DNA of 64,000 nt from Azolla caroliniana (Eukaryota; Plantae; Polypodiophyta). The DNA lies in NCBI GenBank assembly GCA_043228905.1, contig JBHGNT010000009.1, forward strand, positions 14,942,001-15,006,000, read 5' to 3'. The notes under the pieces were generated by a model. It did no database searches. It had not been told where the DNA came from and worked only from the letters and a program-made list of their open reading frames with translations. Positions 19,557 to 61,954 of this stretch are shown piece after piece; within the stretch, counting starts at the first letter, position 1; the number at the start of each line of letters is the position of its first letter. A program made the translations under genes and the position numbers.

Positions 19557-19558
<2 letters not shown>

Positions 19559-19633
<75 letters not shown>
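19559..19633. repeat. (CT)n microsatellite in the copia 5' LTR
   Basis: Pure CT dinucleotide run. Confidence 0.97.
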
Positions 19634-19635
<2 letters not shown>

Positions 19636-24931: not shown

Positions 24932-24969
<38 letters not shown>

Positions 24970-24974
<5 letters not shown>

Positions 24975-25800
24975 ACCAAGTTTCTACAAGTTAAGAAACA
25001 AACGCCCTACACCCTCCTCCTCCTTGAGACGGGATCGCTTCCCATTGAGATCATGGCCATGGAAAGGGTTGTTGAATACATGCTTAAGGTTCAAAAAAGT
25101 CCCTCACATCGACTTCCTAGAATTGCGTGGGAAGCAAGCAAAAAGATCCAAAAGACGCATAAAAGCAAAATTTTATGTTCCGGTTGGATGCAAGATATAA
25201 AAAATGGTTTGGTAGATGGGATGCGAGACACTTGCTTCATGATGCATCATTAGATTCCTCTGTAAATGAGGCATTTTTGCAATGCCAATGTATCATGACA
25301 TGGGACAAATGTGGAGGCTCACGCTTCACACATTATACTACACATGTTGCACCTAACTACAAAACCATATTCTTTGCGGAACGGGGAAATCGTACACATC
25401 CATACATGTTAGAGCCCATACCGTTATCTGCCATTCGAACCATTGCTTCCATGCGACTTAGCTCACATGCATTGCGATGTGAAACAGGGCGTTGGGGTAC
25501 AAGTGATGAGAGTGGTCGGCTATGCACACTTTTCCCTAAACAAGTTCGCGAGTCTGAGTATCACACTTTGATACAATGCTCTGCCTTTGATCATATTCGA
25601 CCATGCTTTCCACATCTCTTCGATCGAGCCCAATCTTTGCATGAATTCCTCTCACAACCACAATGTGCACTCTCGATTGCAACATTCATTGGTAAAGTTC
25701 TTGAACATCGAGAGTCACTACTCACTTTCACACGTATCACGTGAAATGTAATATTTTTGGTCTCATAGGTCATATTTGATCTCCGAAGACGATAATATAA

Positions 25801-25805
<5 letters not shown>
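24970..25805 (+). mobile_element. 5'-truncated LINE copy (3' end of ORF2 plus 3' UTR), flanked by (CT)n on both sides
   Basis: Near-identical to 28798-29635; lies between CT runs at 24936-24969 and 25806-25833. Confidence 0.93.
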
Positions 25806-25833
<28 letters not shown>

Positions 25834-26193: not shown

Positions 26194-26199
26194 GGACAC

Positions 26200-29100
26200 G
26201 TGATCTATGAGACTAACCCACGCCTTTTACGACTATGCTTTTGGAATTGCAATGGATACCCATGGAATGCGGGATTTGGCATAGAGGAGTTCACCGATGA
26301 CTCGGATATCACACTTCTTGTTGAGACATGGGAGCATGATACTCAAAGGATTCAAGGTTTAGGAAACTATAATGTACACTCTTTGATATGGAAGAAAAAT
26401 CCAAGACAAAGAAGAGGACAAGGAGGGGTGGCATGTTTGATTAAGAAGGAAATAGAGAAATATGTGTCAATCATAAAAAATGATGAAAATAAATGCTACA
26501 TATGGCTCAAAATAGAAACACCTAATTATTTGCCCACTTTTGTAGTTGGATGTTACATCCCTCATCAAGATTCTAACTTTTATGCTTGTTTGGATAAAGA
26601 TCAACCGTTTGCCAATCTAGAAGATGATATTGCTTATTTCAAATCCAAAGGGGAAGTTATTGTCTTTGGTGACATGAATGCTCGTACAAGAAGTTTCCAA
26701 CTTGATTCACAAGAATCTTTCATGCCACATATCTCAAGGATGCAAGAGGATATGCAAATGTATAACCGCTCTTTTAGCGATGAAAAAGATCCGGACCAAT
26801 TTGGGAAGTTACTCCTACAAATGTGCAATAGTACCGGATTGCTTATTGCAAATGGTATTTCCTTATGGCCCAACACTAATGGTTTTACATGTAGAAAACA
26901 CAATGGAAATAGTGTGATTGACTATGTGCTACTTTCCGAATGTATTTTGGATCGTATACATAAATTCTCACTTGGTGAATGGACACCGGAATCCGATCAT
27001 AGGCCTTTATGTATCGATCTCAAATGTATGCATAGGTTTGATTGTGAGAAGGCTATTGAAGATAATAAACAACCGCACTTGAGCATGAACCTTAAGCGAG
27101 CACCCATGTATTCCAAGATGGTTGAGGATATGTTACAAATGACAAAGATACAACATGGTGCCACACTAGAATGCAAATGGGAAGCTTTCAAGAAAGTCAT
27201 TCTCTCATGTACAAACAAATGTTTTTCGACCAATCGCACATCTTGGAAATGCACCAAGAAACTTAGGAAAAAATGGTTTGATAAAGAATGTCATGAAGCT
27301 CGAAAGTGCCTTATGGTTTTGGATGTAGTTAAGGATAAAGAGAATTACCAAAAGCATTTGCATGAGTATAAAAGGCTTATTCAAAGAAAGAGAAGAATAT
27401 GGGAAGTTACTCAACAACTTATCCAAACGCAAGAGAAAGCACATGCATGTGCTAAATTTTGGGGAAATCTAAAGGGAAAACGTATTGAGAGTTATGGTGA
27501 CTTAACTCTTCACGACTTGTCTATGCATTGTAAGAATTTATATGAGTTATCTCTTGCCGGAAAGATGATGTGTTATGGTTCTCTTTCACATATGCCTCCC
27601 TTCTTTACAATTGAAGATATATGCATAGGACTTAAGAAATTGGCCTCTCGAAAGGCAAGCGATCTTCAATGTATAAAGGCTGAAATGCTCAAATGGACGG
27701 GAAAGGAAGCACATATATGGATAAGCGATATGTTTAATGATGCATTGCAACATGGTATGCCGTACGATTGGACTACAAATTGGATCAAACCTTTACATAA
27801 AGGTGGAGATATAAATAATGTAAACAACTATCGAACCATCATGGTTGGCTCATTAATGGCAAAACTATTTGGATGTATAATGGAATCAAAGATAAGTGTA
27901 TGGGCTGAAAAAAGTGGTAAGAGAGCTTATGGACAAGTTGGCTTTCGGAAACACCATAGCACCATTGATCACCTTATCACCCTTCGAGTATTAATGGAGG
28001 AAAGTCGCCTTAGAGGTAAAGGTTTATATTGTTGCTTTGTAGACTTCAAGAAAGCTTTTGATATGGTACCTCGTGAGCATCTTTGGAGGCGAATGGAAGA
28101 ACTTGAGGTGCCAAGTGAATATATGCTTGCAATTTTCCGAATTTATGAGAAGGTTATATGTTGTGTGGGCATGAGAGATAAACTTTCAGATTTTTTCAAA
28201 AGCACTATTGGTGTTAAGCAAGGATGCCCACTCTCACCAACACTATTTGGTCTATGCATTGATGAATTGGAAGAAATGGTTACCAAGTTTGCAAAGGAAG
28301 AATGTGTTGAAGAAGTTGCCATTGGGAATGTTGTGATTATGCTTTTGCTATATGCAGATGATGTAGTGCTTTTTGCAAATACTTTAGGAGATGCACAAAA
28401 GCTTATGAAGGCATTGGAAAAATTTTGCATGCATACTAAATTAAGTGTCAATAGCTCTAAAACAAAGATTATGCTTGTGAAGAGCCAAAAAAGAGATAAA
28501 CCATGCATTATGTACAACAATGAGCTACTTGAATGTGTGGAAAGCTTCAAATATCTTGGCCTTGAAGTTCCTTCAAATCATAGATGGAATGAATGTGCTA
28601 CACGCCGCTTAGAGGCGGGCAAGCGAGCATACTATGCATTTGAGAACACATGCAATCTTGGAGATATTAAGTGTTGGGTCCTCAAGAAATATCTTTTCGA
28701 CACTTTGGTGACACCGGTTCTTCTCTATGGGGTGGAAGTATGGGGCGGTAGCATCCCTAAATCTATGTGGAAAGAGTTTGAAAATGTCCAAAAGCATTTT
28801 CTTACCAAGTTTCTACAAGTTAAGAAACAAACGCCCTATACCCTCCTCCTCCTTGAGACGGGATCGCTTCCCATTGAGATCATGGCCATGGAAAGGGTTG
28901 TTGAATACATGCTTAAGGTTCAAAAAAGTCCCTCACATCGACTTCCTAGAATTGCGTGGGAAGCAAGCAAAAAGATCCAAAAGACGCATAAAAGCAAAAT
29001 TTTGTGTTCCGGTTAGATGCAAGATATAGAAAAATGGTTTGGTAGATGGGATGCGAGACACTTGCTTCATGATGCATCATTAGATTCCTCTGTAAATGAG

Positions 29101-29574
29101 GCATTTTTGCAACGCCAATGTATCATGACATGGGACAAATGTGGAGGCTCACGCTTCACACACTATACTACACATGTTGCACCTAACTACAAAACCATAT
29201 TCTTCGCGAAACGGGGAAATCGTACACATCCATACATGTTAGAGCCCATACCGTTATCTTCCATTCGAACCATTGCTTCCATGCGACTTAGCTCACATGC
29301 ATTGCGATGTGAAACAGGGCGTTGGGGTATAAGTGATGAGAGTGGTCGGTTATGCGCACTTTGCCCTAAACAAGTTCGCGAGTCTGAGTATCACACTTTG
29401 ATACAATGCTCTGCCTTTGATCATATTCGACCATGCTTTACACATCTCTTCGATCGAGCCCAATCTTTGCATGAATTCCTCTCACAACCACAATGTGCAC
29501 TCTCGATTGCAACATTCATTGGTAAAGTTCTTGAACATCGAGAGTCACTACTCACTTTCACACATATCACGTGA
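26200..29574 (+). CDS. LINE ORF2: APE endonuclease, reverse transcriptase and C-terminal CCHC; one premature stop at 29014-29016
   Basis: WNCNG, VETW, GDMNA, IDY, SDH (APE); FVDFKKAFD, GVKQGCPLSP, YADD (RT); CALC..ESEYHTLIQC. The TAG corresponds to TGG in the upstream copy. Confidence 0.93.
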
Positions 29575-32564
29575 AATGTAATATTTTTGGTCTCATAGGT
29601 CATATTTGACCTCCGAAGACGATAATATAATCTATCTATCTATCTATCTATCTATCTCTCTCTCTCTCCCGAGTACTCTCTGTATTCTGTGTACTATTCT
29701 CTCTCTCTCTCTTTGCTGCTACGCAGCCAAGCTGTTGTCTTACGCTTCCGCACATATGCTTTCACACAAATAGACCGAGAAGGTCGAAAGGCCCGGAATT
29801 GGATGGGTCATGAAAAGCGGGACCAGACAGGTCGAGGAGCAGGAGCAAGGCAAGAAGACACCAAGAGGAGCCAGAGGGAAGGACCAGCAGACACTAACAC
29901 CACGATCCAACCTCAAGTTGAGCTTGAGGGGGAGTGTTGAGTAGACAAGCTCAACCGGATCGGGCTTGGTTGAATAAGCCAGAGCCGGATCGGTATCTGG
30001 AACGAAGAACTGAATAGGTATTCGGATCGGTATGCCAAATTAGAGAGATGGATCGGATTGTAACAGGTAGGCCATTGGAGGTCCACAATCTTAGCCTAGT
30101 ATGTAGGCAGATTCCTTGGATTTAGTGTTAGTCGCTCGTATGAGCATTGAAGTACTTGTCAGTACTTCTGCCAGTCCTTTTAAGAACCTATATAAAAAGT
30201 GTTGTGTAGGACATTGTATGTACAGAGTGTTATTATTTTGAATTTAGTTTTTATGTTGTTCTGCTCTCTTTGTCTCTCCCGTGTATTCAAGCTTTCCATT
30301 GAACCTTCCTTCTGTGTTCTACTATTATCTGAACTAGCCAGTTTTGTCTTAGCTTCCGCACATTATCTTTGTCATTGGTATTGTTCTTCACTCACCATTC
30401 CTCTACAACTTTTCGTCCCTCATACATGTTCCTATCCACCTCTGTGAGTAGCTTTGAGCATAAAGCCCTAGTCATAGAAAACACCTCAAATAGAAGAAGA
30501 AGCCATACTCGGGGTCCACAAAATAATAGAAATAACTCTAAGGGGAGGTCTAAATTTAGAAATAAGAAAAAAAAAATCATGTTGGTAATGTGGTGGTCTA
30601 AATCACTACAAAAGAGATTGTAGAATGAAGAGGTGAGACCAAAAGAATGGAACCACTAACAACAAGAAAAATGACCCTACAACAACCACATGTGATGGTG
30701 AAATTACCAGTGTTTGTGATTATTCTTGTGACAATTTAGCATGCCAACAAACTTATTGGATTATTGAGTCGAGAGCTTCATATCATATTACCCCATATCG
30801 AGAGATGTTTACATCATATGCTAGTGGTAGCTTTGGTAGAGTCAAATTGGCCAACCAAAGTGTGACAGAGGTTGTTGGCATAGGGAACATCATTTTGGCA
30901 ACAGACACAAGTTGTAAACTTGTATTGAAGATGTTAGAGATATTTTGGATATTCGTTTGAATATCATTTTTTCCGGTAAGCTCAGAGGGTTATCAAATTA
31001 CTTTGGTGAAGGAAGATGAAGCCTCACCAAAGGGTCTCTAATCATTGCAAAATGTCAAAAACTAAAATCCATATACCTTATGCATGTTGTGGTGTCTAGC
31101 AGAGAGGTAAATGTAGCTAACAAGAATGTCTCTATTAAGCTATGGCACAAGAGACTTGGGCACCTGAGTCAAAAAGGACTTGAGGTTCTAGCAAGGAAGA
31201 ATGTTTTTCTAGAGATAACATGTTTGCATTTGGAAACTTGTATTGATTGTTTGGTCGGTAAACAACATAGAGTTGCTTTTCACCTGTTACCCCCAGAAGA
31301 AAATCTCAGTCATTGGAATTGGTGCATACTAATTTCTACTATATGAAAGATTAAACTCTTGGTGGTGCATTATACTTCACTACACTCATTGATGATTTCT
31401 CGAGGAAATTGTGGTGCTTTGCAATGAAATCTAAAGATCACATATTTGATATCTTTAAGAGCTTTCATGCTAGTGTTGAAGAGAAACTAGAAAGAAGTTA
31501 AAATGCATTTGTGCGGATAATGGTGGTGAATATTGGGGTCAATTTGAGCAATATTGTCGTGATCATGGTATTAGGCTTGAGAGAAGTGTTCCAAAAATGC
31601 CTCAGCACAATGGTGTGGTTGAAAGAATGAATAGAACAATTTGTGAGCGAATAATGTGTATGTTATCACACTCCAAATTGCGTAAACCTTTTTGGGGTGA
31701 AGGAATTAGAATTGAAGTTGATTTTAGAAACTTGTCTCCGTCGGCACCTTTGGACGGTGATGTTCCCAAGAGTGTTTGGACAAGAAACAATGTTTCATAC
31801 AAACACTTGAAAGTCTTTGGTTGTAGGGCTTATGTTCACATCCCAAAATATAAAAGATCCAAGCTTGATAACAGGCGCAAACTATGTATATTCTTCGGCT
31901 AAGGTCATAAAGAATTTGGTTATAGATTATATGACCCAGTGAATAAGAAGGTTACTAGAACCAGGGGGTGTAGTATTCCTTGAGGATCAGACTTTACAAG
32001 ATCTAGAGCTGAGTGAAATACCAAATTTCACGCCTGATTTTTCAATCACCACACATTCAACTCCTACCCTAGACATTTAAGTTCATGAGGGAGATGTGGA
32101 GGAGTATGATGATTGTTGTCTGCTGGAATAGTAACCGACGGACAAGAGCGCAGGAATAGGAAATAGTATAAGATTGTAACGCATGTAACGGTTCACATGG
32201 GAAGCGTGAACGGCAAAAAGACCCTACGTATATAAAGGGCATAAAACCTCTAATAGAAGTAGCCTGTAATTTTGGAATGTAAAGAAGCGTATCGTAATAG
32301 ATTTCTATCTTCTCTGATATTTGTGTATAGCTACGGCTAATCTACTGTGTGTCTAGAATACCTGAGAGTGTAGAAGTAAGAAACGTGAGCGTGTAGCCAC
32401 TGTTAAGGAGTTCGGTTGTAGCCGTCTCCCTTATACGTTGCTAGGTCACGGGGAACACCCCCCTACGTGTTACGCACAGACACCACCGTTCGTTGTCTCA
32501 CAGTCACTTGGAGATCTAGGTCGAAGGACTCACCGCAGACCGTGTTCCTAATCGGCAACACTTT

Positions 32565-32578
32565 TGGCACGCTTGGTG
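32565..32578 (+). promoter_or_regulatory. Primer-binding site, tRNA-Arg type
   Basis: TGGCACGCTTGGTG 4 nt after the 5' LTR; 13/14 match to the complement of the plant tRNA-Arg(UCU) 3' end as recalled (TGGCACGCCTGGTG). Confidence 0.7.
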
Positions 32579-35500
32579 ATCTGTGTCTTCTCACAGACGA
32601 ACAGCGACGAATGGATGTTTAGCCGCAGATGCCCCAGAGAACCAACACGACAAGACCGGCCAATCTCAAGGTCCATCACACGCCAGGCAGAGGAACGCAC
32701 ACGGCAAAAGCCTCGCCTCAGCGACCTCAGTACTACCTGTCGTGATTACAAAGGTGATTTTTCGCTCTCCAAATACCTCGACGATACGCGAGGAGCATGC
32801 TCACCCCCAGCAACATTGTGGTCTTTCCCGACCTGTCGTCGCCCCCAGCATTGCCTTTGCCTATCCCCGCTTTAACGGTGAAACCGACGCCGCAACCCAT
32901 ATTCGCATGTTCCTCAATGTTTGGAATGCGAACCACATGGCGCAGAGCCTTTCTGAGGCGGTAGCGCACCAGTCTAAAATGACGGAGTTCGGGTTAACAT
33001 TGGATGGGCGAGCGGCATTTTGGCATTCACAGATGGATTTGCCAGCAATCACGACCTTCGATTAGCTGCAGTCCGCCTTCTTGCGGTTCTTCCATCGGAG
33101 GGTTCCACAACGCAAAATCCTCGGACAGTTCTACACAATTAAGCAACTGCCAACTGAGACGATCGCAGACTTCAGCTTACGTTTCCAAAATTTACGGCGG
33201 AAACTAGAATGGAGCCCCGCGGAGGATGAGGCTTGAGAGACATTTTTGGCAACATTACGTTGACCCATACGGACAACGCTCAACAACAATAGCGTGAAAG
33301 GGGAAACGGTGGATATGGTCATTGAACGAGCGTTACAGCTCGAGTTGGACGACGAGGAGAAAAGGTTTTCTATGTCCTCCTTACGACAAGCGTTACCCCA
33401 GGACGAGGAACGACAGTTTCGTCAAGCAATCCAGTGCATGATTTGCTTGAACTCGGGGCATTCCGCAATGGAGTGCAACATGCGAATCCATTGCCCAATC
33501 TACCACTCGAAGGCTCACATAGTCAAACAGTGCGAATACAATATGCTGAATAGAGCCGCTCCCACAGTACGTAGCATGGACACACAGCGTCCCCCACGTC
33601 GTACTGAACAAAGGAGACAAGAAGACCGACCACGGTATGTGGATCGCAACCCACGTGACGACCGGCACCACCGGAATCGCCGGAATCACAACGATTCCGA
33701 GGAAGACGAACCAGAGGATGAGGATTACCATGGACCTCTGAGTTATGCTAAAGGGGGCCGGCGCTATGAGAATCACCGGCCGACAAACAAACGTGGTGGC
33801 TTCAATAGTTATGTGGGAAGCCGCAGCAATATCGAGACCACCGGCGATATGACGAAAGCTCGGGAGATGAGCGACACCAAGAACCACGTCGGGACCAACA
33901 ACAACCACCGCCTACGTTCCGACAAACGAGGCCGGACCATGAGGAGTAAGTCGCACCAGGGGATCGGCACACACCACCAGGAGCCGAGAAGGGCGAATCG
34001 AGCATCCATTGTTTTGTTTGTCAGCAGCCCGGACATTATGCCACGCAATGCCCAGCATGCAAGGGCAAGGGGCCCGCCGTCAATATGATTATGACAGAAG
34101 TGCAGCAAGTCACGACACGCCGGCAAACAAAAATGGCTAATTGGGCCGCTCAAGTTGAGATACGACGACAAGCCCAGGCATGGGTGGAAAAAACAAATGC
34201 GACCAATACAGAGCGCATGCAAAAGGAGTCCGCGAATACGATGGAGCGAGTGGAAGATGAAGGACCGGCCCCAGACCCCATTTGGCAAGCATTAGCGGGT
34301 TGCGAGATAACGTTAACCATGGAGAAGCTGTTGCAGCTAGTCCCACGCTTCCGCCAAACCATGGAAGAACGGGTGACGGGCATACCCAAGGTGAGCGTTG
34401 TTACGAACCTTACGGACGTGAGTGACGGACTACCTGTAGTGGATCACCACAACCCGGCTATTACATTGATATTACACGGACAGGAAATTCCTGGATGCGT
34501 AATCGATGGCGGCTTAGGCGTTAATGTAATTAGCACGAAAACATGCGAGCAATTAGGCATTTCAGAATGGGAGGCTTGCCCATTCTGGCTCCGAATGGCA
34601 GATACCCGCTTAGTACGACCATTGGGGTTGATTCGCAAGATAGGCATTATCGTGGGCGGACATCGCATCGACATCTCGGCGGTTGTCCTCGCCTTGGACG
34701 CCCCAGGGGCATACCCCGTGCTTCTGGGCAGACCGTGGCTTCAGGCAACAAATATCAAGCAGAGCTGGCAACACAAGTGTATCAGTTTCCGACACAGACG
34801 CACTAAGGTTCGCGTACCTACGGAAGGAAGCACGCCACAATCCAAGGGTATAACACCATTATACGCAGAAGATATAAATATGTTGGTTGGGATGGAGGAT
34901 GCAGAATTAGAGGCATACCTAGACGAGCACCCTCGGATCATTCCGTTGTTCAAAATCAACATCATCGCAACCGCGGCAGAATATGCCACGGCCACTATTC
35001 TCCACGACGAGGCTTACGAACCAAACCTGGAGTCCATATTGGAACTCAGCAGAGCACGGGTGGCATTCGAAAGGGAAATGGAAATTTCACGATGAGTCAT
35101 CGCCTCCGCCCTGGAAGAAGTAAACGTGGGTATGGAGTCCAAACCCCGTTTCCTCTCCATCACAAAGAAATTAAGGCCGGACCAGAGAAACACGATGATC
35201 GAACTACTCAAGAAATATAAAGATGTGTTCGCTTGGGCTCACAAGGACATGAGGGGTTAGATCCCAAGTTTTATCAACATAAGATCAATTTAGCAACCAA
35301 CGCAAAACCCGTCTAGCAACGCCGCTACCGCATGAAACCGAACTACGCGACCCGTTAAACAAACTCCTAAATGCGGGATTCATACAGCCAGTTAAACAAG
35401 CCACATAGTTAAGTCCGATAGTAGTCGTTCCAAAGAAAAACGGAAAAATATGGGTATGCGTGGATTACCGAAAATTAAACGTCGTAACCATTACGGACGC

Positions 35501-38288
35501 ATTCCCTTTACCATTCACCGATAATGTATTGGACGCCGTCGTAGGACATGAGATGTATAGTTTTTTTGATGGCTTCAGTGGGTATAACCAGGTACACATG
35601 CATCCTGATGACCAAGAGAAGACGGCATTTGTCACGGACTGGGGAGTCTATGTGGCAGTCGTCATGATGTTCAGGCTAAAGACGGCGCTAGCAACATTTC
35701 AACGGACAATTACGGAGATCTTTGGGGAATATATTCCGGCATTCATGCAAGTTTTTTTAGACGACTTTGCGGTATATGGGAAAACAATCAACTATTTTAC
35801 GCATCTGCAACTGTGCTTGGAACGTTGCCGCACCGCACGCTTAAGCCTGAATCCCACGAAATGTGCCTTCGGTGTGACCAGCGGGACTCTCCTAGGCCAT
35901 ATAGTCAGCAAGGATGGAATAGCGGTCGATCCGAACAAGATCTCTTCGATTACGCAAGCCAAAACTCCGACAAACGCAAAATCACTCAGCCGGTTTTTAG
36001 GACAAATACGATGGCATAGTCGGATGATACTATATTTGGCGGACTTCGCCACGCCGTTACATGCTATCATGCATCGGACTCCCTTCCAATGGACCGCAAC
36101 GGAGGACAAGGCCTATGAGGCGCTTAAGATAATGCTCACACAGGCCCCCATCGTACAGCCACCAGTTTGGGCGAAGCCATTCCACGTGTTCGTCGACGCC
36201 TCGGACATAGCAATAGGGAGTGCGCTAATGCAGCTGACCGAACCAAACTGGTATCGGCCATTGTACTACGCTAGTCACATATTATCAACAGCAGAGCGTA
36301 ACTATTCCACAACGGAGCGGGAGGCGCTAGGGATGATCTATAGCATCAATAAATTCCGGCATTATTACCTGGGGAGGAAATTCACGTTCCACGCGGATCA
36401 TTCGGCACTCCTATATTTGGTGGAGAAACAAGCTCTGACAGGGAAATTGGCGCGACGGATGCTGCTGGTTCAAGAATTCGATTTTATAATTCAGCACCGA
36501 CCGGGGATGCAACACGCAGTGGCAGATTTTTTGAGCAGACTCAATAATGGAGAAACAGTACAGAAGGACGACGATGATTTTCCGGACGCCGACATATGCG
36601 GGTAGCCACACTAGCAGAAAGAACGGAATCGACCTTTCCGGACCGGTGGCTTATGGAAATGACATACTTTTTTACTACAAAACTGCCTCCACCACAATTA
36701 AGCACGGACAAGAAGAAATGATTAGCCGTCTGAAGCCGTAACTTCTGCCTCGTAGAAGGAATTTTATATCACAAAGGAAGTGACGGCATTTGGCGACACG
36801 GGGTACGTCAGGATGAGAAAGAAGCAATTTTACGGGAAGCTCACTACGGCACGGCAGGCGGCCATTACGCGGGTGATGTTACGCCCGGAAAATATGGCAG
36901 GTGGGCCTATGGTGGCCGACAACACATAAGGACGCATACGAGTATTGTAGAAAGTGTGATTTGTGTCAACGGATGGGCCAGCCCACGGAGGGCGCAAGGA
37001 TGCCACACCAACCTGTATTACCGTTAGACCCCTTCCAAAAGTGGGGATTGGATTTTGTGGGCCCCTTCACATCGGAGGCAGCCCGTACGGGCAATAAATA
37101 CATATTGGTAGCCATGGATTATTGCACCAAGTGGGTAGAAGCAAAGGCACTACAAGAAAATACGGCAGCCGTCACAACGAGATTCCTTTACGAGCACATC
37201 TGGTGCCGGTTCGGCTGTCCGATTGAGCTCATCACTGACCAGGGGAGCCACTTTCTCAATACGGTTGTTCGAGAACTAACACATCATTACACCGTAGTCC
37301 ACAAGAAGAGTATACCATATTATCCACAGGCGAATGGGTTAGCGGAATCCACCAACAAGACGTTGCAGACCATCTTGAAGAAAATCGTCAATGAAAATAG
37401 AACGGACTGGGATACCAAATTACAGAGTGCGTTATGGGCGTACAGAACCAGCTACAAAACAAGCATATAGTCAACGTTGTTTCGACTAGGGTTTGGACTG
37501 GAGGCCGTGATGCTGGTAGAGTTTCAGATACCCAGTTTACAGATTCAGGTACGGGACCGACTATCAGAAGCCAAGTTGGAGGACGTACGGCTCCACCAGT
37601 TACTCGAACTCGGCGAAAAACGCGTACACAGCATGGCTGTCTTGGAGCAGGAACAACGACGGCGTAAAGCGTTTGTAGATCGACATCGGAATGCATGGGA
37701 AAAGGATTTTGTCGTCGGTCGAGCAGTACTGGTTTTCCAAACCCGCATGGGCCATATGCTCGGGAAGTTACGATTCCGCTGGACATGCCCGTACTGGATA
37801 ATTGGAGCAGAACAAGGCACGTTCCAACTAGGTACGTTGGTTGCGGAAGTCTTATGACAAAAGGTGAATGGGTTTTACCTTAAACCTTACCTGGGCCCTA
37901 CGCCACCTAACCCATTCACCGCCGGACAGGACAAAGGAAGAGAACCCGCGGCGTAAGTGGACGGGCCCACTTGTATCATAATGTAAGAATAGTTTGTATG
38001 TAACCGTTACGAAAAAAAAAAAAAGGAGAAGATAGTGACACTATTAAAGAAAAAGGACTGAATGCATGCACAGACTCCTAGATCAAGAACACGCGGCACC
38101 ACGATGGCTCATCGCCCAATGAACCCTAGGCCATAGAAAGAAGAAAATAGAAGATCTTCTGCACAAAATAGAAACCCACCTCCTAACCCTCAGCGCTCTC
38201 ATCGCTCCCTTCCCTCACCTTCTCCTCCATCCTCTCACAAAGCTCCAACCCATCGCAACCACACCAGTCTCCTCCCCACGAGCATAGT

Positions 38289-41021
38289 TTGGCGATGTCG
38301 ATCTTCATCTCTACCGCCTTACGCCGATGGCTCGTGGAGAAACGCCTGGATGGGTACATCCGGGTCGCAGAGGCACCTCCACACCCAGATGCCATGGACA
38401 TCGCCAGAAAGCTTAATATCGACACGGTCACCAACTCTTCCATCCGGAAAAAGTTGGACCTGTCATCGCTAGGCGAGAGGCATTTCGACATCCCTCCTGC
38501 AGAGGCACTGCAGAGATATTTCGGTCCATATTCCTCCTCCGCCAAGGCCTATAGAACGAAGCAGATCCCGGATCCCTTCTTCCGTGAAGTCGTCAAGTTC
38601 CTATTAGAGGTCGGATGCGTACACGTCAACGCATATGGGATGCCCAAGCAAAAGGCAGGTATCAATATTGATACCTTTGAAGGGCATGCGGTCAATTGGG
38701 GGGTCATCACAGGGTCGGCGTTAAGGGAAGGCCTGCATGCGTATCAGGGAGGCAAGAAGCTCAGGCCGATCATACAACAGTACCTTACGGTGCTATTCCC
38801 ACCCCGAGGCCTGCCGGCACTGAAGCCCAGCAGACCCACGCCTCCGCCCCAATCCGCGAAGCGCAGGTTAGCGGAGTTAGCTGCCCCAGAGTGGGAAGAG
38901 GAACCCCAACCCGCCCAGCCAGACACACGGACAACACAGGAAGAACAGCCGGCGCGCTCCGCGGAAGCAGCCCCAGAGCCAGACGCCGAAACACGGTAGG
39001 ATAGCCCCAAACCGAAACGGCGGAGGTTGGACCGGAAAGATGGGCGGGGATTAGTCAAAGACGTCCCCACGGCGGCAGAGACAATGACCGAAGGCGATGG
39101 CTCCGCAGCTACGGAGCCCAATACCACCTTTGAAATCATCCGGGAGCCACGGTCGATCATTACGACCCAGTCACAACGAGGGAAAGCCGTATTGACAGCG
39201 GAAAGTGAGGTTTTGGCATATCCAGATATCCCGGACACGGCCCATGAGTTCAACGCCCTCTTGCAGTTCGAAAACTCTTTTGAGCTCATGGAATTCCTGG
39301 CAACGCAACAGATAAAGGCCTCACAACGAATGGTAGAGGAGCACACGGAGCGCTAGATGATCGAGCGCGCCCTAACACAAACGACGGAGAGCGACAATGC
39401 GGACCAGCTAGCCAGGGTCGGTAGACAGAGGAACGCCGGTGTACGTCGAGTGGGGATGGAGCTACCCCCATTAAACACGGCCCTAGTCAAAGTCCATAGG
39501 GAACTAGCAAAGGTCAGCACGAGCACCAAGGAGATGGCCATTAAAAATAAGAATGTCTAGAAGAAGGTGAAACTGACCCAAGCCAAGCTACAAAAAGCCA
39601 ACGAACGCATCGCGGAGTTGGAAACTAACGCGACTATGGCGCAACAGGCAACTCCGCCACCAACCCACACCATCGACGCTTTGAAGGAAGAAATTGAGGC
39701 TCAGACCACCATCGCCTCAAAAGCGAAAAGGGTCGTACAACTAGCGGAATCAAAAATTGACCACCTTCGCGCTGAACTTCACCAATCCTCAGACAAGGAA
39801 AAGGATATCTGGGCTAACGACCGGAAGGCAGTAAAAACCCTTGAAGAGAAACTCGTTGCGGAGGCAGCTCAGCACACCCGGACAAAAGAAGAAAACGCCC
39901 AATTACAGGAGGAAGCGAAGAAGTCGGAGGCGGCAATCGTGGGACTCCGGGCCTTATTGGAGAAAAAGAAGGTATGGTTCGACAAGCAGCTGGTGGGCTA
40001 ACAGGAAAGAAGGCATCAACTCGAAATCCGCCTAAACAATGAAATGGGGAAACTAGAAGAACTCCATGCGAAGGAAGCCTAGTTGTGGGCGGGCATGAAG
40101 AGCACGTACGAAGAAGCGGCGGCAGTTAGCCAGCAAGAAATTGCAAACCTCAAGAAGGCGGTAGAAGAAGCAGGCAACCGCTGCCAGGCCATCACAGACA
40201 ACGTGCATATCCTTCTCCAAACGAATCGGGAGAGGTTCACAGCGCAATTGAAAACGGCGCTAGACAAAGGACGGATGGCGTGGGCAGCCCAAGCGGCGGA
40301 ATTGCACGCGTATCATGCGGACTGGGAGAACAAGCAAAAAGACGTCTGAGGCTTCTATAAACTCAATGAGGAGAGCATTGCGGCAGTACGCGAGGACCTA
40401 GCGCAGGACTATCGCGTGCTAGCAGACCAGCATTCCGAAGAACTCGCGCAGCTATTAGACGATTTTGGGGAAAGCCAAGAGGACCTGTTTCACCATATCA
40501 CACAAACCGGCAGCACGCGAACAAATGAGGAATCCGTCGCGCCACCAATTCTAGACACTACCGAAGAAGAGAAACCTCAGGCCAGGTCACCAGACATTAC
40601 AACTACGGTGAACAGCGCAGCGGGGTCCCCCACATTACCAGACAGCGACACCACGGCCCAAGAGGAACCCCATCTACCGGAGCATACGCTAGCGGCCGAC
40701 CACACGGAGAACGTTGCGGACCAAGCGGAACCACAACCCCACTCCCCAGAGCGTACAACAACGGCCGACACCACGGAGCAAGTGACGGAGGAGATAGCGC
40801 CGCGACCGACCGCAAGCCTGCCGACGGCTGAGCTCAACCCCATAGCCCAAGAAGAGCCCACAGAACCCGGACCGCCCACACAGGACGATCGTGACACCAG
40901 GAGAAGCCCTCCCGACCACACAGGGGAACCACACCACGATGCACCTACAGGCTCTACGTCGTCCACAAACGCGGACACCGTAGCAGAGCCAAACATCTGG
41001 GACATTTTGGAAGAAGATTAA
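38289..41021 (+). pseudogene. Gypsy extra ORF (~910 codons, one frame, several stops): globular N-terminus, coiled coil, P/T/E-rich tail
   Basis: ORF pieces starting at 38289, 39027, 39357, 39567, 40083 and 40416 share one frame and are separated only by stop codons. Confidence 0.8.
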
Positions 41022-43304
41022 TGGGATGGGTCCGATGTGCCATGGCACTGTCCCACAGGCGTGCCAGGTGTTGTCTGCTGGAATAGTAACCAACGGACAA
41101 GAGTGCAGGAATAGGAAATAGTATAAGATTGTAACGCATGTAACGGTTCACGCGGGAAGCGTGAACGGCTAAAAGACCCTACGTATATAAAGGGCAAAAA
41201 ACCTCTAATAGAGGTAGCCTGTAATTTTGGAATGTAAAGAAGCGTATCGTAATAGAATTCTATCTTCTCTGATATCTATGTATAGCTACGGCTAATCTAC
41301 TATGTGTTTGGAATACCTGAGAGTGTAGAAGTAAGAAATGTGAGCATGTAGCCACTATTAAGGAGTTCGGTTGTAGCCGTCTCCCTTATACGCTGCTAGG
41401 TTACGGGGAACATCCCCCTACGTGTTACGCACAGACGTCACCGTTCGTTGTCTCACGGTCACTTGGAGGTCTAGGTCAAAGGACTGACCGCAGACCGTGT
41501 TCCTAATCGGCAACAATGATGTAACTGATGATGATGATGATGAGCAAAATAATGATCATTGTATTCCAAGTGACGAGATTGATGACATTCTAGCAGTTCC
41601 ACCACAAGAGGAAGAGATTAGATGGTCTATGAGACAAAGACAACCTTCTATTAGATATAGTCCACATGAATATGTGATGCTCACAAATGGGGGAGGGCCA
41701 AAAAGATTTAGAGAAGTTATGGCACATGATCAAAAGAGAAATGGTTTGAGGCCATGACAGATGACATGAAGTCCTTGCAAGATAATCACATTTATGACTT
41801 AGCAAAAGTTTCCTAGCAAGATAGCGTTGAAGAACAAATGGGTTTACAAGCTAAAGACCGAGGAACATTGCTCACAACCAAGATACAAGGTAAGATTGGT
41901 TGTGAAGGGATTCAATCAAAAAAAGGGTGTTGATTTTGAGGAGATGTTTTCACCCGTGGTGAAGATGTCCTCAAATAGAGTTGTACTTGGGATTGCAAGT
42001 AGTCTCAATTTAGAAATTGAACAAGTTGATGTAAAAATCACCTTCTTTCATGGTGATTTGGAAGAAGAAATTGACATGGAATAACCTAAGGGGTTTGAAA
42101 CCAAAGGAAAAGAAAACAAGATCCTAGACTTTGGTACAAAAAATTTGACTCGTTCATGTTAGACCACAGGTATAACAAGACTAACTCAGATCATTGTGTT
42201 CTTTAAGAAATTCTCCAATGGTGATCTCATCATTCTACTCTTGTATGTAGATGATATGTTGATCGTTGGTCAAGATACCAACCAGATTGAGAAATTGAAG
42301 AGAGAACTTAGCAAGTCTTTTGCTATGAAGGACTTGGGAAAAGCTAAGCAAATCCTTGGGATGAAGATAACCAGGATAGAGCAAGTAAAAAACTTTGGTT
42401 GTCTTAAGAAAAATATATTGAGATTTAACATGGCTAAGTGTAAGGCAATCAACACTCCACTCGCAAGCCACTTTAAAGTCACTCCGAATAGTGCCCTACA
42501 AGTGAGGAAGAACATGAAGAAATGAAACAAATATCACATGCTTTTGCAGTTGGTAGTTTGATGTATGTTATGGTTTGCATGAGGCTTGAGATTGCTCATG
42601 CAATTGGTGTTGTAAGTCATTTTCTCTCAAATACTAGCAAAGATCATTATCTTAGAGGCACTTTGAGAGTTTGTCTAAATTTCATTCATAACCAAACTAT
42701 GTTAGATGGGTATACAGATGCAGACATGGCTAGTGACATTGACTCTAGAAAATCCACATTAGGGTATTTAATGATCTTTGTAGGGGGAATTGTCTCTTGG
42801 CAATTGAGACTTCAAAAATGTGGGGCATTATGCACAACAAAGGTTGAGTATATTTTTGCCACAGAAGCTTGTGAAGAGATGTTATGGTTGAAGAGATTCC
42901 TACATGAGTTGGGGTTGGTGTGAGAAAGGTATAAGCTTCATTGTGATAGTCAAAATGCTATACATTTATGCAAGAACTCTTCCTTTCATTTTTAAGTCTG
43001 AACATATTGATGTTAGATACCATTGGATTTAAGATGCGTTTGAAGAAAATCAAATGCACATTGAGAAGGTTCATACCAATGAGAATGGCTTCGACATGAT
43101 GGCAAAGTGTTTGCAAAGAGAGAAGCTTGAAGCTTGCAAACAAAAAGCACGTTTGATTGTGCCCCCTACTTGAGATAGAGGGGTAGAATTGTGGGGGGGG
43201 TGGGGGGGTTTCCACTCAAGTGGAACCAACAATTAAAAGGCAATAAGTAAAAAGGTTGCGGCTATTTGTGGAATTGTTGCACTACCTTTTACTTATTGTT
43301 CATA

Positions 43305-54515: not shown

Positions 54516-56131
54516 GACAAATGGTTTACAACAAAAAAAATGGGATATTTACCCATTCATCGAAAGTAAACAAATAAAAATAAAAATAGAGTTTTAAGCT
54601 AAATAGTTCTAGTTAAAATAAAATAACAAACATGTTCTACAATGAAAATGATGTTATACTAGGCCTAATTTCATTTCCATCCAAGTCTCTCGAAGAGAAG
54701 TGGGAGGTCAAAGGGTTTCGATGTGGATGTGGCCCGTGGCCCCAATGTAAAAGGCACCCCAACCACGTTCCCTTATCTTCTTAATCCTTTCTACTCCGTG
54801 TCGACTTGTTTTGAAGCCCAACATCCGAGGGCATTTGGTTGTTCTTTGCGTTTCGGCTTCCTCAAGAGAGAGGCCGAACGGCGTAAGTGTATCCACATTC
54901 ATTGTCTCCCATTGTTCCTAAAAAATTACACTAGTTACAAGTTGATGAATAGTAAAAGGGTTATGGTTAACACTTTGTAATTTATTCTCCCTATGTTGTT
55001 TTAGCTCTAAGATATACCTACCTAGTCTCTTTACATTCAGGGTATCTAATAGTTTGGAGAGGGTGGGAGAGGGTCCTAATATGTCTTGGTATTCCACTCG
55101 TATCTCGGCATAAGTTGGGCACTTGCATGTGAAGTGATACTCATCCTCTATCTCTATGTGGCACAACCTACATAGCCTTTCCTCCCTAGGGACTCTATTA
55201 GCCCGACCATTCTCAATCTCAAGTTGGTGAGATGATATCCTAAGTTGTCCAATGGCAACCCTTAGTGCATTTGATAAGAATGTATCTATATATCTTGGTC
55301 GTGTAATAAAACCTAACTGAGAGAAGTGCAAGAAGTGTTCCTTATAGTACAACATTTTAGATGGGAGTGGCTCTCGTGGGGTGATCCATTTATATATCAA
55401 GTGTAAATTTGCCATATTTCTTGGCGTATCACTTTATTACGGTGTCGTGTTGTTACGCGCATATGTGTAGAAAGGGGCGGGACCACGGGGGTCTTGGACC
55501 GAGGAGCGAGAGAGAGACAGAGACAGAGACAGAGAAAGATTCACCAACACGTAGAAGCGAGAAAGAGAGAAATAGAACGTAACACTTAAATATAATGACA
55601 ACGATTACAAACTCCGACAATTACAACCGACAAGGCGGTGACGGGCCCGACACGGGGACCCTACTCACGCACACAGACGACGGTCACCGACTCAAAGAAA
55701 ACAAAGGGGGAAAGGGGAGCGACTCTGCCGGAAGCACACGGGCTGTCCACGAAGCAAAGGCAGCGACCTCCCGACACCCGCAGAGAGCGACGATTCGAGA
55801 CGAAGAGAGAGAGCTCCGCCTTCCGTTTTGCAGCAACCTCCCTCTCCCTCCTCGCGCACGATATCCTCTTTTCTTTCTCCTCTTGCCTTTTATCCCCTGT
55901 CCCCCTTTGGGATACGCACAATCCCCTCTGATAAATGCGTGTGGCTTAGTAGTCACATCCACCGGTTCGCGTACAAAGTATCTAGTCACGCGTCCATCTG
56001 TGTAGGGGCCGGTTTACGCGCTTTCTCTCCGATTCCGCCTATGGCCGGTTTTCTTCACGACATCCACCCCCACCAAACCACGCATCCACCGGTATGCGCT
56101 AGAGACGGGTAGATATCGAAGAAACCTGGCC

Positions 56132-59100
56132 TCACTCGTTGCTCTCCGTTTCTCCGTCGGACCCGAACTGATCGTCGTTGTCGTTTCCGCTCGCAAGCTC
56201 CGGCTCGTCTTCGAACCGCTTTTTGAAAGCTTTGATCCGCTTTCCGGCCACCGGCACCGCTAGCCGTGTCCCGTCGAGCTCTGCGAGGTGGTACGTGTCG
56301 TTGCCGTTCGCGCTCGTCACCATGTAGGGCCTGAACCATCTCCTAGCAAACTTTCGCACCGCCTTGTGCTGATTGTCGAGGCTGCTGTCGTATACCAAGA
56401 CCCAGTCGCCTTCCTCGATCTTCTTTGGTCGCAATCGGTGCGTCCGGTTGAACCGGATCTTGTTCCGCTCCCTTGCCGCTCGCAACCTTTCCTTCGCCCG
56501 TATCACGTCCTCCGGCCTCCGCTCAAGTTGCCGAATCCGCGCCGCCAACAACTCCTTCCAGCTCATTTCGTCCTTCCAATCTACCATCGCCCACAAAGAA
56601 ACCGTCCGCTACACCGGCATGATTGGCTTTTGCCCGTACATCAGCTCCACCAGCATGAACCCTGTCACCGAACTGTGCGTAGTTCGGTCCGCCCATAGTG
56701 CGTAGGGAAGGAGTCACGACCAATTCTCGACCTGCCCTCCGCATGCACGGACCAACGCTTTTACGATAGGCCCGTGCCCACGTTCTACCTTTCCGTTCGC
56801 CTCCGGATTGTACGCTGTGGTGAGGGAGAGTTTGACACCTAGCCGGTCGAACAACTCCTCGGCCTCCCGCGCATCCAACTCTCCCCGGTCCGCCACGATC
56901 CTCCCGATGCACCCGTACCGACACACTACTTCTTCGATCAGGAACCGGCATACCGCCGCGGTTGTCTTGCTTTGTAGTGCACGGCCTTCCACCTGGTTCG
57001 TTAAGTCTTCCCGTGCAAGCACCAGGTATCGCATATGTCCTACCCCCATCGGCATCGTCACCAAGTCCACCATCCACTTGAAATGGACCGTAGGCGGGTA
57101 GGTCGGGTGTAGCTCGTCCCGGTGTCGGACTACGGAGTGCACCTGACAGCTTTCGCAGGTCGTTACGAACCGATGCACGTCCTGGTATAGCCCCGGCCAC
57201 CAGTACTTCTCCTTCAACTTCTCGAACGTGGCCCATGTTCCGCGGTGTCCGGCCCATGGGCTCTCGTGGAATGCCGTCAGTAGTTTCCCATGTTCTTCTT
57301 TCTTTGCCACTACTCAGAGTGGGATTCCGCTTCTCTTCATTGGGTGTTTCCATATGCACCTATCCCGCAGGAAGAATCGGTACGCCTTCCTCCGTATCCG
57401 GCTTGCCTCCTCTCTCGCCCATGCTGCGTCCGTCGTCATCGTCCGTAGGAACCTCCCGATTTGGAGCCACTCCCCATCGTACCTGCTTTCGTCAAATTCG
57501 TTAAGCGCCAAAGTGTTCCCTTTCCTTCTTGTCGTTACGTTAGCCGACCCGAAGAAGTCCTCGCCGACTTCTTCGTCCTCTGAAACCATGTCGTCTTCGT
57601 CGTTGAACCTTGCCCTCGAAAGCATGTCGGCCATGGCGTTGTCCTTTCCGGAGATGTGCCGTATCTCCGGGTTCAGGGACTTAATGTACGCTATCCACCG
57701 GAGCATTGCTAGGTCCGGCGTCGCGCATCCGGAAACCATGCCGAGTATCGGCAGGCAGTCCGTCTCGATAATCACCTCCGTCCCGATCAGATAATCCTTG
57801 TCGGCCTTAACTGCCGAAACGACACCCCAAAGTTCGCGCTTAACTTGGGCGTACCCTCGCTGCCGCTTGCTCAATACCTTCGCCCCGAACCGGATCAAGA
57901 ATCGTACGCCGCCCCTGTCCTCCTGACTGATTACCCACTCGATCCCGGTCGGGCTGGTGTCCACCGTTACGCAGATGGGAACATCCTTGCCGTAAACCAC
58001 TTTACGGAGAGCCGGCGCTGCTGTAAGCGCCTCCTTTAGTCTCCGAACCGACTTCGTGTGCTCCGTCCTCCACTCAAAGCTACACCCCTTTTTCAATAGT
58101 CCGTAGAGGGGTTCCGCGACATGTGTGTAGTGTGGGATCCAGATGTGGTAGAACGCGCATGCCCCCAAGAATCTGTGGACCTCCGTGACCGACCCGCAAT
58201 CGTTCCTCATCGCGGAGATGGCCTCTACCTTTGCCGGAGACAATTTCCTACCGTAAGGCCCGCACAGGTGTCCGACCACCAAGATCTCCGACTGTCCGAA
58301 GGCCGACTTTTCCCCGGAGAAGGTGAGCCTCGTGCGCTCTAGTCTCTGCAGCACCTTCTCGTAGTCATCGATGTGGGACGCCACGAAATTCCGACATCCG
58401 TCCAGCCCGATTGCCTCGTCCCTTTTCTCCACCGGGCATCCCTTGATCGGGATGTCGTCTAAGAACGGCATGGTGATGTCCGGGATACAATCCCTGAGCA
58501 CTTTGTTCATCGCGTTCACCATGTGAGCCACTGAGTTCATCCCTCCTTGTGGCAGGGTACACATCCGCACTTGGCCGAGAGGAGTCCGCATCGTCGTGAT
58601 GTCCCTGCTCTCCACAGCTAGTTGGAACTGATCGTACCCCGAGTACAAATCACCGACGGAATAGATCGACCTTCCAGCGAAGGCCTCTGCGAACTCGTCT
58701 ATTGTCGGTCTGATCCCTACGTTACGGATGGTCACCTTGTTGACCGGTTGTAGGTCATGGATGAAGCGCAGCGTGCTGTTCTTCTTCGGCACCGTAAACC
58801 ACCGATTCGAATACGGGGCACTCGACGGTTCGAGGATGCCCATCTCCACATTTTGCTTTTTGAGCTCCATCAACTTCGGGATGTGACCTCTAGGCACCGG
58901 AATTGGCTTGAGATTCCACGGTACATGCGGTACCGTGAAGATCACCATCGGTTCGACAACTGTCGGGTCTACACACCCGATCTGCTCCAGTGAGAATGCG
59001 AAAGCCTTCCCGTGCCTCCCGAACATTCTCCGAAACCGGTCCTCCTCCGCCGGCAGTAGGAAGCCGCCCCCACCGACCTTGAGCTCCCATAGCGTTATGT

Positions 59101-59629
59101 CGGTGAACCGGTGCCCTATGCTAGTCGGATTTCGTAAACTTGGGTCCGACACGACCCCTTTTATCCGGTCCTCACTGCCCTCCGGCAAGGGTGCCGCGAC
59201 TGGCCTCACCTTCCGGTCCACAGTCTTATATTTCGTATCCACGCGGGCCGTCCGATCCGACCCGATCCTTTCCCCAAAGTTTGTGATGACTTCGTACATT
59301 CCCATCGACCCTACCGGAACGGTCCGGTCTTCTCTAAGGTCTTCATCGATCACCTTTCGTAGTTCGCCCAAGGTGTCGCCAAAAGAGACCGCCTCCACGG
59401 CGCCGCTGATGTCTTCGTCGGGGAAGAGGACTCCGCATCCCTTGAGCCGCTCCTCCGCTCGCTTCCTCTCCCGGCCGCTGACGCCGGTTATAGTACAACC
59501 TCCATTGTCGGAGAACCAAAACTTCCTACCCATGGTACAAGTCTTCATCCATACTGAACATTTGTGGGGTTGTTCCTGGGAGTCCGGACTATCGTGGCCC
59601 CACGCCTTGATAGCCCTCTCTAAAAATCC
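56132..59629 (-). CDS. Gypsy Pol (RT-RNase H-integrase) in the -1 frame relative to gag; a few premature stops
   Basis: DLYSGYDQF, LPQG, FLDD; TVDTS; H..GH..CESC, VDL, ADRGE, NGKVE. Pieces 57314-59548, 56714-57310 and 56132-56596 are in one frame. Confidence 0.88.
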
Positions 59630-61752: not shown

Positions 61753-61774
61753 CTTTCAACTCCTTTGCCGCCCT

Positions 61775-61792
61775 TTCACGTCGGGTTCACCA
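61775..61792 (-). promoter_or_regulatory. Primer-binding site complementary to tRNA-Trp
   Basis: Plus strand TTCACGTCGGGTTCACCA equals the 3' 18 nt of plant cytosolic tRNA-Trp as recalled; 3 nt from the 5' LTR. Confidence 0.85.
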
Positions 61793-61857
61793 AGATGTCG
61801 CGTTGTTAGGCGCATATGTGTAGAAAGGGGCGGGACCATGGGGGTCCTGAATCGAGG

Positions 61858-61860
<3 letters not shown>

Positions 61861-61938
<78 letters not shown>
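61861..61938. repeat. (GA)n microsatellite in the Gypsy 5' LTR; much shorter in the 3' LTR
   Basis: Long pure GA run versus a short interrupted run at 55508-55535. Confidence 0.95.

Positions 61939-61954
<16 letters not shown>

What the first reader, a model, noticed from the sequence alone, without database searches (positions are those of the whole stretch)
41022..41068. Gypsy element with a tRNA 3'-end copy (inverted PBS) where the polypurine tract should be
Seen: the bases before the 3' LTR are ...GTGCCATGGCACTGTCCCACAGGCGTGCCA-GG-TGTTG, with no purine tract. GTCCCACAGGCGTGCCA (41050-41066) ends in CCA 2 nt from the LTR and is nearly complementary to the element's own PBS (TGGCACGCTTGGTG, 32565). 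The segment can fold (TGGCAC/GTGCCA and CTGT/ACAG stems) and overlaps a 12-bp palindrome GTGCCATGGCAC. Knowledge: LTR elements normally prime the plus strand from an RNase H-resistant PPT; plant tRNA-Arg(UCU) ends ~GTCCCACCAGGCGTGCCA (recalled), matching here with one gap. Inference: either tRNA-Arg primes both strands by using a second PBS on the minus-strand DNA, or the RNA supplies its own tRNA-mimic primer, or the 5' and 3' ends pair to circularise the RNA. I know of no described case. Paired LTRs and a TSD show this copy integrated normally.
Basis: partly seen in the sequence, partly recalled or inferred. Interest (0 to 1): 0.85.

Follow-up and report, generated by a model that had tools for sequence, protein, structure and literature searches.

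The report
Second tRNA site replaces polypurine tract
A high-copy plant jumping gene and its relatives lack the purine-rich signal that normally starts their second DNA strand and instead carry, two bases before the right-hand repeat, a conserved copy of a tRNA's 3' end, so a second host tRNA likely starts that strand.

Summary
The element (32114-41515; LTRs 94.4% identical; 5-bp TSD) has no polypurine tract (PPT). Its last 41 internal bases before a 2-nt spacer are a cassette: tRNA-Arg(UCU) nt 49-58, a 14-nt hairpin, then nt 59-76 lacking one base, ending CCA. In four sequencing runs the cassette is the deepest internal part of the stretch laid. A metagenome scan found it in 32 contigs (12 LTR-start groups besides this one, probably one study), always 2 nt before an LTR start and retained in ORF-less short elements. 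The inserted hairpin shows compensatory changes. One contig supplied the tRNA itself, copied whole behind an LTR. Read on the minus strand, the cassette resembles the element's own bipartite PBS, and the two sites match tRNA better than each other. Best reading (0.55, untested): a second tRNA-Arg primes plus-strand DNA. Main rival (0.28): the element's own RNA cassette is the primer. Ten literature searches found no described case. The scan noted the same feature twice before on other pieces of this genome, and similar cases in fungal elements; those are unchecked notes.

The parts
32109..32113 (+). target-site duplication ATGAT (left)
32114..32560 (+). 5' LTR, TGTTG...CAACA
32565..32578 (+). 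primer-binding site, 14 nt complementary to the tRNA-Arg(UCU) 3' end (with G:U wobble), after a 4-nt spacer CTTT
32580..32597 (+). 6-bp hairpin right behind the PBS
32598..32602 (+). CGAAC, complementary to tRNA nt 53-57; likely second part of a bipartite PBS; at offset 31-33 in 4 of 4 autonomous-type PBS seen
32580..37956 (+). gag-pol region (zinc knuckle, RT, RNase H, integrase in Gypsy order), broken by stops and frameshifts; no archaeal RNase H or chromodomain hit
38011..38032 (+). 22-nt purine run between pol and the extra ORF; possible internal plus-strand start, 3 kb from the LTR so it cannot define the LTR end
   Evidence: role inferred
38295..41021 (+). extra sense ORF after pol (relatives 538-1075 aa, no known family), interrupted by stops in this copy
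41026..41035 (+). cassette part 1: copy of tRNA-Arg(UCU) nt 49-58 (T-stem 5' strand and start of T-loop)
41050..41066 (+). cassette part 3: copy of tRNA nt 59-76 lacking one base at the T-stem/acceptor junction, ending CCA; on the minus strand it reads as a primer-binding site pointing into the LTR
41067..41068 (+). 2-nt spacer (GG here; TG, AG, TC in relatives)
41069..41515 (+). 3' LTR
41516..41520 (+). target-site duplication ATGAT (right)

Best explanation
This Gypsy lineage has replaced its polypurine tract with a conserved tRNA-Arg(UCU)-derived cassette whose minus-strand copy likely serves as a second primer-binding site, so that a second host tRNA would start plus-strand DNA two bases before the LTR. 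Shown: no PPT; the cassette is family-wide, sits at a fixed distance from the LTR, matches the tRNA and is kept in ORF-less elements. Follows from established LTR replication: the plus-strand primer end sets the left LTR boundary, so priming must happen at this spot. Inferred: after RNase H removes the RNA, tRNA nt 59-76 (one base bulged) and nt 49-57 pair with the minus-strand DNA. The 13-15-nt hairpin would loop out at position 58, where m1A blocks pairing. RT would extend the CCA end, RNase H would remove the tRNA, and integrase would trim the 2-nt spacer.
For: (1) Position: in 32 of 32 full cassettes CCA lies 2 nt before TGT (31) or TCT (1); none has a purine run over 8 nt in the last 60 nt. 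(2) Conservation: in run X1 the cassette bins have summed depth 149-165k against 4-79k in the upstream bins; the pattern holds in 4 of 4 runs; none of the 40 listed variants (of 141) and no listed indel falls in 41037-41075. (3) Retained in short elements with PBS, 777-926 nt of internal sequence and no hit to the element's proteins inside (L045, L049, L063). (4) The minus strand uses real tRNA: L041 has a whole antisense tRNA-Arg(UCU) with CCA joined to an LTR end. (5) Same design at both ends: tRNA-3' complement, small hairpin, then a complement of tRNA nt 53-57 (CGAAC in 4 of 4 autonomous-type PBS). (6) The two sites do not track each other: the cassette mismatches its own PBS at nt 55 (window) or 53 (L040, L046) where the tRNA pairs 5 of 5, and the PBS keeps the base that the cassette lacks. 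Nominal duplex energies: 18-mer with minus-strand cassette -35.2, with PBS -28.2; cassette with PBS -21.4 kcal/mol. (7) Among 13 groups, changes at nt 49-57 are 12 wobble-compatible against 6 mismatches; position 58 takes all four bases, and G53A breaks a T-loop closing pair, which argues against a folded tRNA mimic. m1A58 blocks base pairing (PMC13191261, passages).
Against: No experiment and no RNA or cDNA-end data. The one-base deletion is fixed in all 32 cassettes and weakens tRNA pairing; a pure binding site has no obvious need for it. The wobble-compatible changes (G>A, T>C) are also the commonest mutations, so point 7 is weak. The added T-arm pairing beats shuffles of the upstream block (at most 10 of 200) in only 4 of 23 distinct segments. 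T50-G52 and the CCCAC block could equally be kept by an intramolecular stem. The four CGAAC-bearing leaders are homologous, so they are not independent. Energies use RNA:RNA parameters for an RNA:DNA duplex, and the tRNA copies carry mutations. The 17-mer was fixed by my search pattern, so its invariance across families is not measured.
Confidence: 0.55

Rival explanations
1. The element's own RNA cassette is the plus-strand primer, a non-purine PPT. RNase H, tuned to cut after the tRNA-Arg 3' end when it removes the minus-strand primer, would cut after the same CCA in the genomic RNA, and the hairpin would pause RT or shield the fragment.
For: Keeps the usual cis logic. The sense RNA can fold GUGGG/CCCAC plus the inner stem, leaving a 10-nt tail; inner stems give 79 Watson-Crick, 7 G:U, 5 A:C and 1 other of 92 pairs, with three pair types at one position. 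It needs no exact tRNA match, so the fixed deletion is no problem. Ty3 PPT cleavage depends on local structure (PMC5371799, passages).
Against: Folding is not better than shuffles (mean z -0.94 RNA, -0.67 minus DNA). The tail is free in the predicted fold in only 9 of 23 segments. G:U versus A:C counts (7 vs 5) do not favour the sense strand. A pyrimidine-rich RNA in a perfect hybrid should be cut by RNase H (inference). It does not explain why the PBS has the same architecture.
Confidence: 0.28
2. The cassette mainly pairs with the PBS in the genomic RNA, circularising it or acting as a self-made minus-strand primer; plus-strand priming at this spot is a by-product.
For: The cassette tail and the PBS can form 10-11 bp (-18 to -23 kcal/mol). 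In L045, L049 and L063 the PBS match stops at 10 nt, the length of the tail. Ty1 has 5'-3' cyclisation motifs (PMC3592414, passages).
Against: A tRNA-length 18-mer binds the window PBS more strongly than the cassette does. Cassette and PBS mismatch each other where tRNA pairs (the single L045 copy does pair 5 of 5). The L041 read-through shows tRNA priming of the minus strand. It leaves the missing PPT unexplained.
Confidence: 0.1
3. A tRNA fragment captured once by a reverse-transcription accident and carried along without function, or a chance match; priming uses some unrecognised sequence.
For: These elements do copy whole tRNAs into DNA (L041, two copies), and the insertion sits where RT stalls.
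Against: The cassette is the best-conserved internal segment. It survives across groups with unrelated LTRs and extra-ORF pieces only 29-68% identical to the window's, it is kept in ORF-less elements, and its hairpin covaries. Chance 17-mer hits (10 in metagenomes; 5 in 596 Gb of prokaryote genomes, not examined further) show what a bare match looks like: the 10 score 17.6-19.4 bits against 38.9-64.3.
Confidence: 0.05

Closest known systems
Canonical LTR retroelement priming, e.g. Ty3 of S. cerevisiae (PMC5371799, passages)
   Same: tRNA-primed minus strand, LTRs with TG...CA ends, Gypsy domain order, a fixed plus-strand start just upstream of U3.
   Different: The paper gives tRNA and PPT as the two primers; here there is no PPT and a tRNA-derived cassette holds its place.
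Bipartite PBS of Ty1 and Ty3 (PMC5371799, PMC3592414, passages)
   Same: Acceptor stem and T-arm of the primer tRNA pair with two segments; in Ty1 they are separated by a small internal loop, as predicted here for both sites.
   Different: Those segments are complementary to tRNA in the RNA and serve the minus strand. Here the 3' site is tRNA-sense in the RNA and becomes complementary only in minus-strand DNA.
Plant non-chromovirus Gypsy, OTA superclade: Athila and Tat/Ogre (PMC6317226, passages and its summary table)
   Same: 5-bp TSD, no chromodomain, extra ORF after pol, 4-5-nt spacer before the PBS; tRNA-Arg PBS as in Ogre and TatIII; RT 39-43% identical to the listed angiosperm proteins.
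   Different: No archaeal RNase H (unlike Tat), Arg rather than Asp/Asn/Ala primer (unlike Athila), short LTRs; the RT groups with liverwort and fern proteins, not inside angiosperm Athila (quick tree).
Self-priming Tf1/Tcn1 and TAR elements (PMC6317226, passages)
   Same: A known departure from the standard primer set.
   Different: They drop the tRNA for the minus strand; here the departure is on the plus strand.
Cer7 of C. elegans (own tRNA-like primer) and Drosophila micropia (possible second tRNA site): recalled only
   Same: If recalled correctly, tRNA-like sequence near the 3' LTR.
   Different: Not confirmed: searches found no passage on either point. These are leads for a reader with access to the original papers.

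Membership tests
Ty3/Gypsy LTR retrotransposon | RT-RNase H-integrase order after gag | tested here: met
   zf-CCHC, RVT_1, RT_RNaseH, Integrase_H2C2, rve in that order; the protease was not hit by Pfam
Ty3/Gypsy LTR retrotransposon | paired LTRs TG...CA with TSD | tested here: met
Ty3/Gypsy LTR retrotransposon | tRNA primer-binding site after the 5' LTR | tested here: met
   tRNA
Canonical PPT-primed replication | polypurine tract next to the 3' LTR | tested here: not met
   absent in the window element and in 32 of 32 relatives
Athila (OTA) | no archaeal RNase H; 5-bp TSD | tested here: met
Athila (OTA) | PBS for tRNA-Asp/Asn/Ala | tested here: not met
   PBS matches tRNA-Arg(UCU); expected types
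Athila (OTA) | extra ORF of the ATHILA family (PF03078) | tested here: not met
   no hit in three window pieces or four full-length relatives
Athila (OTA) | RT groups within the Athila clade | tested here: inconclusive
   quick tree only, no REXdb references: the element is in a 36-row group (SH-aLRT 92) with liverwort and fern proteins, beside a 17-row conifer and angiosperm group (96) that holds a PF03078 protein; no clade test run
Tat/Ogre/Retand | archaeal RNase H domain | tested here: not met
   no such Pfam hit in the element or in P0121, P0122, P0124
Phygy / Selgy | 4-bp TSD and tRNA-Trp or -Ala PBS | tested here: not met
   5-bp TSD and Arg PBS
Tcn1/Tf1 self-priming chromoviruses | chromodomain; PBS not matching a tRNA | tested here: not met
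tRNA-primed plus strand (proposed) | tRNA covalently attached to plus-strand DNA 5' end | not testable with these tools
   needs particle cDNA or an in vitro assay

The most novel reading that the evidence does not exclude
A whole lineage of plant LTR retrotransposons replicates symmetrically: host tRNA-Arg primes both DNA strands from two mirror-image bipartite sites, the second one on single-stranded DNA with a hairpin placed at the tRNA's m1A58. This would make the PPT dispensable for LTR replication.
Probability: 0.55. Interest if true: 0.87.

Novelty: new variant of a known kind. Interest (0 to 1): 0.76.

Why it matters
PPT priming of the plus strand is treated as a constant of retroviruses and LTR retrotransposons. 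A successful high-copy lineage without a PPT shows that the step can be rewired, whichever of the two leading mechanisms is right. If tRNA primes on DNA, it gives a natural test of how RT and RNase H choose and remove primers, and it doubles the element's exposure to tRNA-fragment silencing. In practice, annotation tools that score a PPT will under-call these elements or may read them backwards.

Tried and rejected
No host genome is held, so full-length sister copies could not be collected. Viral collection: three scans, no match. No tRNA gene in the window and no Rfam family at the motif. No RNA holder listed among sequencing runs; this says nothing about expression. The MAFFT alignment misregisters the inner stem for one family, so the pair counts understate it, while the per-sequence fit chooses the best loop and overstates it. 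Ten of the 42 loci with the 17-nt form were first set aside by eye and then scored: they match only the 17-mer. The profile was built from 27 of the 32 kept loci plus the window, so their scores are partly circular. Palindrome as a dimer signal: rejected, since it is not kept in other families. A sense-strand whole tRNA in front of an LTR, the expected fossil of plus-strand tRNA priming, was sought in the 120 loci and the window and not found; the sample is small. Searches of paper text for the motif sequences gave nothing relevant. The careful tree did not finish; the Phygy-like row is a long branch and is unplaced. Atlas hits for the extra ORF were all below 0.9.

Full report
Observation. 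The element spans 32114-41515, with 447-bp LTRs (422 of 447 identical, no gaps), TSD ATGAT, a 4-nt spacer and a PBS at 32565. Pfam places a zinc knuckle, RT, RNase H and integrase in Gypsy order; the frames are broken by stops and shifts. An extra sense ORF runs from about 38295 to 41021. The 17-mer ending CCA is at 41050-41066, then GG, then the LTR. There is no PPT: the longest purine run in the last 60 nt is 9 nt inside the ORF end, whereas three other LTR elements in the window have G-rich tracts beside their 3' LTR.

Is it a defect of this copy? No genome is held, so I laid contigs of public runs on 40860-41260 at 80% likeness (four runs, at most three samples). In run X1 the two bins covering 41042-41069 have summed depth 149k and 165k, against 4-79k upstream and 13-212k in the LTR bins; the other three runs show the same shape. 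Summed contig depth is not copy number, but conserved, shared sequence gives this pattern. None of the 40 variants shown (141 in all) and no listed indel falls in 41037-41075. Loose ends at 41023-41027 and 41075-41099 suggest other families that share only this block. A narrower lay could assess only the middle positions. It listed 41043 (hairpin loop; about 15% A and 15% G in X1) and 41050 (about 5% A), and no indel. The best run may be the window's own sample.

Relatives. A metagenome scan for the motif with or without one extra base returned 120 loci from 22 of 64 parts of the collection. Of these, 78 have the 18-nt form, mostly with a 3- or 5-nt spacer (70 of the 74 with a measurable spacer). 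Where pol could be placed it mostly lies on the other strand (L001, L003, L023, L024, L033, L059; both strands in L052), so these are mainly ordinary primer sites read backwards, plus a few chance hits. The other 42 have the 17-nt form: 10 are bare matches (17.6-19.4 bits) and 32 are full cassettes (38.9-64.3 bits, partly circular). In all 32, CCA is followed by 2 nt and TGT or TCT; for TG spacers a zero-nt reading is possible, but the LTR ends seen in L045 and L046 fit 2 nt. Eleven of the 32 have the extra ORF in sense upstream; ten had 300 nt or less upstream to test. They fall into 12 groups by LTR start, 13 with the window counted apart from its nearest group (my grouping). They come from nine assemblies with neighbouring accessions, so probably one study and few hosts; none is over 83% like the window across cassette plus flank. 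L045, L049 and L063 are short elements with a PBS, 777-926 nt of internal sequence and no hit to the element's proteins, and they keep the cassette. Retention in such elements marks a needed cis signal (inference).

Anatomy. L041 carries, directly behind an LTR end and a 5-nt spacer, a complete antisense tRNA-Arg(UCU) of 76 nt including CCA, and a second, more decayed copy. This gives the tRNA from data and shows that tRNA primes the minus strand; whole-tRNA copying is known for unmodified primers (PMC13191261, passages). Against it, the cassette is tRNA nt 49-58 (41026-41035), a 13-15-nt insertion (41036-41049), and nt 59-76 with one base missing and A where this tRNA copy has G67. The insertion is a 3-4-bp hairpin; one pair occurs as U-A (12), G-C (11) and C-G (2) among 28 rows, and none of 500 shuffles reached the observed count of double changes, a figure that relatedness inflates. 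Overall folding is not better than shuffles on either strand. The 5' PBS of four autonomous-type leaders has the same layout read on the RNA: 14 nt of tRNA complement, a small hairpin, then CGAAC, the complement of nt 53-57. These leaders are homologous; a looser version of the 5-mer occurs in 13 of 78 control loci.

Mechanism. From established LTR replication, the plus-strand primer end fixes the left LTR boundary, so the primer or its binding site must be in this cassette; the purine run at 38011-38032 is too far away. Two candidates remain. For a tRNA bound to minus-strand DNA: the shared layout of the two sites; the stronger nominal duplex with the cassette (-35.2) than with the PBS (-28.2); mismatches between cassette and own PBS where tRNA pairs fully (3 of the 3 pairs tabulated; the L045 copy is an exception); 12 wobble-compatible against 6 mismatching group-level changes; and a free position 58, where m1A cannot pair. 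Against it: the fixed one-base deletion; the fact that wobble-compatible changes are also ordinary transitions; and a T-arm pairing gain that beats shuffles in only 4 of 23 segments. The rival, an RNase H-resistant self primer, fits the intramolecular stem and the deletion, but the tail is free in only 9 of 23 predicted folds and the wobble pairs show no strand bias. I put these at 0.55 and 0.28, 5'-3' pairing at 0.10, and a functionless fossil at 0.05. All steps after the sequence anatomy are inferred.

Classification. The closest RT relatives are unnamed (73-77%); the closest named ones are liverwort and fern proteins at about 45-52%. A quick tree of 61 rows places the element in a group with those proteins, beside conifer and angiosperm Athila-type proteins. 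It lacks the archaeal RNase H of Tat, the Asp/Asn/Ala primer and PF03078 ORF of Athila, and the 4-bp TSD of Phygy and Selgy. I file it as an unclassified non-chromovirus Gypsy, probably of a seed-free plant.

Literature. Ten full-text searches listed no paper describing a tRNA copy in place of the PPT or tRNA priming of both strands; I judged most from listings and abstract starts, and the library lacks most subscription papers. I read passages of PMC6317226 (plus its summary table; Additional files 1 and 3 were too large and may list related elements), PMC5371799, PMC13191261, PMC3592414, PMC3601003, PMC7264820 and PMC9669667. Cer7 and micropia are recalled leads that I could not confirm. Earlier scan notes describe the same feature on two other pieces of this genome and mirrored primer sites in single decayed fungal elements. 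I saw the two plant notes after my analysis was done; they are not independent support.

Verdict. A real, conserved, PPT-replacing cis element in a large plant Gypsy lineage; a new variant of LTR replication signals; mechanism likely dual tRNA priming but untested. Interest 0.76.

Noticed in passing
L041:2079-2154 and 2797-2872 (minus strand): Two whole antisense copies of tRNA-Arg(UCU), the first with CCA and joined to an LTR end by a 5-nt spacer, each followed by an integrase-like fragment: likely fossils of RT reading through the entire primer tRNA and then switching template.
   Followed up: partly
window 38295-41021: Extra sense ORF after pol; eight relatives of 538-1075 aa, 41-71% identical over the N-terminal 235 aa, no Pfam family; only a weak Atlas lead (0.79) to plant mobile domain proteins.
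   Followed up: partly
window 38011-38032: 22-nt purine run between pol and the extra ORF, a possible internal plus-strand start in an element that lacks the terminal PPT.
   Followed up: no
window 55443-62481 (minus strand): Second Gypsy element with a 4-bp TSD ACGG (NCGN type), a G-rich tract before its 3' LTR and a PBS that I read from memory as tRNA-Trp; fits the Phygy description in PMC6317226.
   Followed up: partly
L045, L049, L063, L072 (also L034): Short non-autonomous family with internal tandem repeats, a 10-nt PBS and the cassette; L045 shares its LTR with an autonomous-type PBS and gag start (tandem or collapsed assembly).
   Followed up: partly
window 26194-29016 (+) and 11434-12474 (-): LINE-type ORFs (endonuclease plus RT in the first, 940 codons open); the first lies between 866-bp direct repeats at 24969-25833 and 28798-29663 that are 97.6% identical.
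   Followed up: no
window about 4330-10240 (-) and 19240-24970 (+): Two related Copia-like elements (79% identical over 5.9 kb) whose LTRs hold long CT/AG microsatellites; both have G-rich tracts next to the 3' LTR.
   Followed up: no
window 31000-32108 and 41521-42900: The Gypsy element appears to be inserted into an older, decayed Copia-like pol region (read by eye, not scanned).
   Followed up: no
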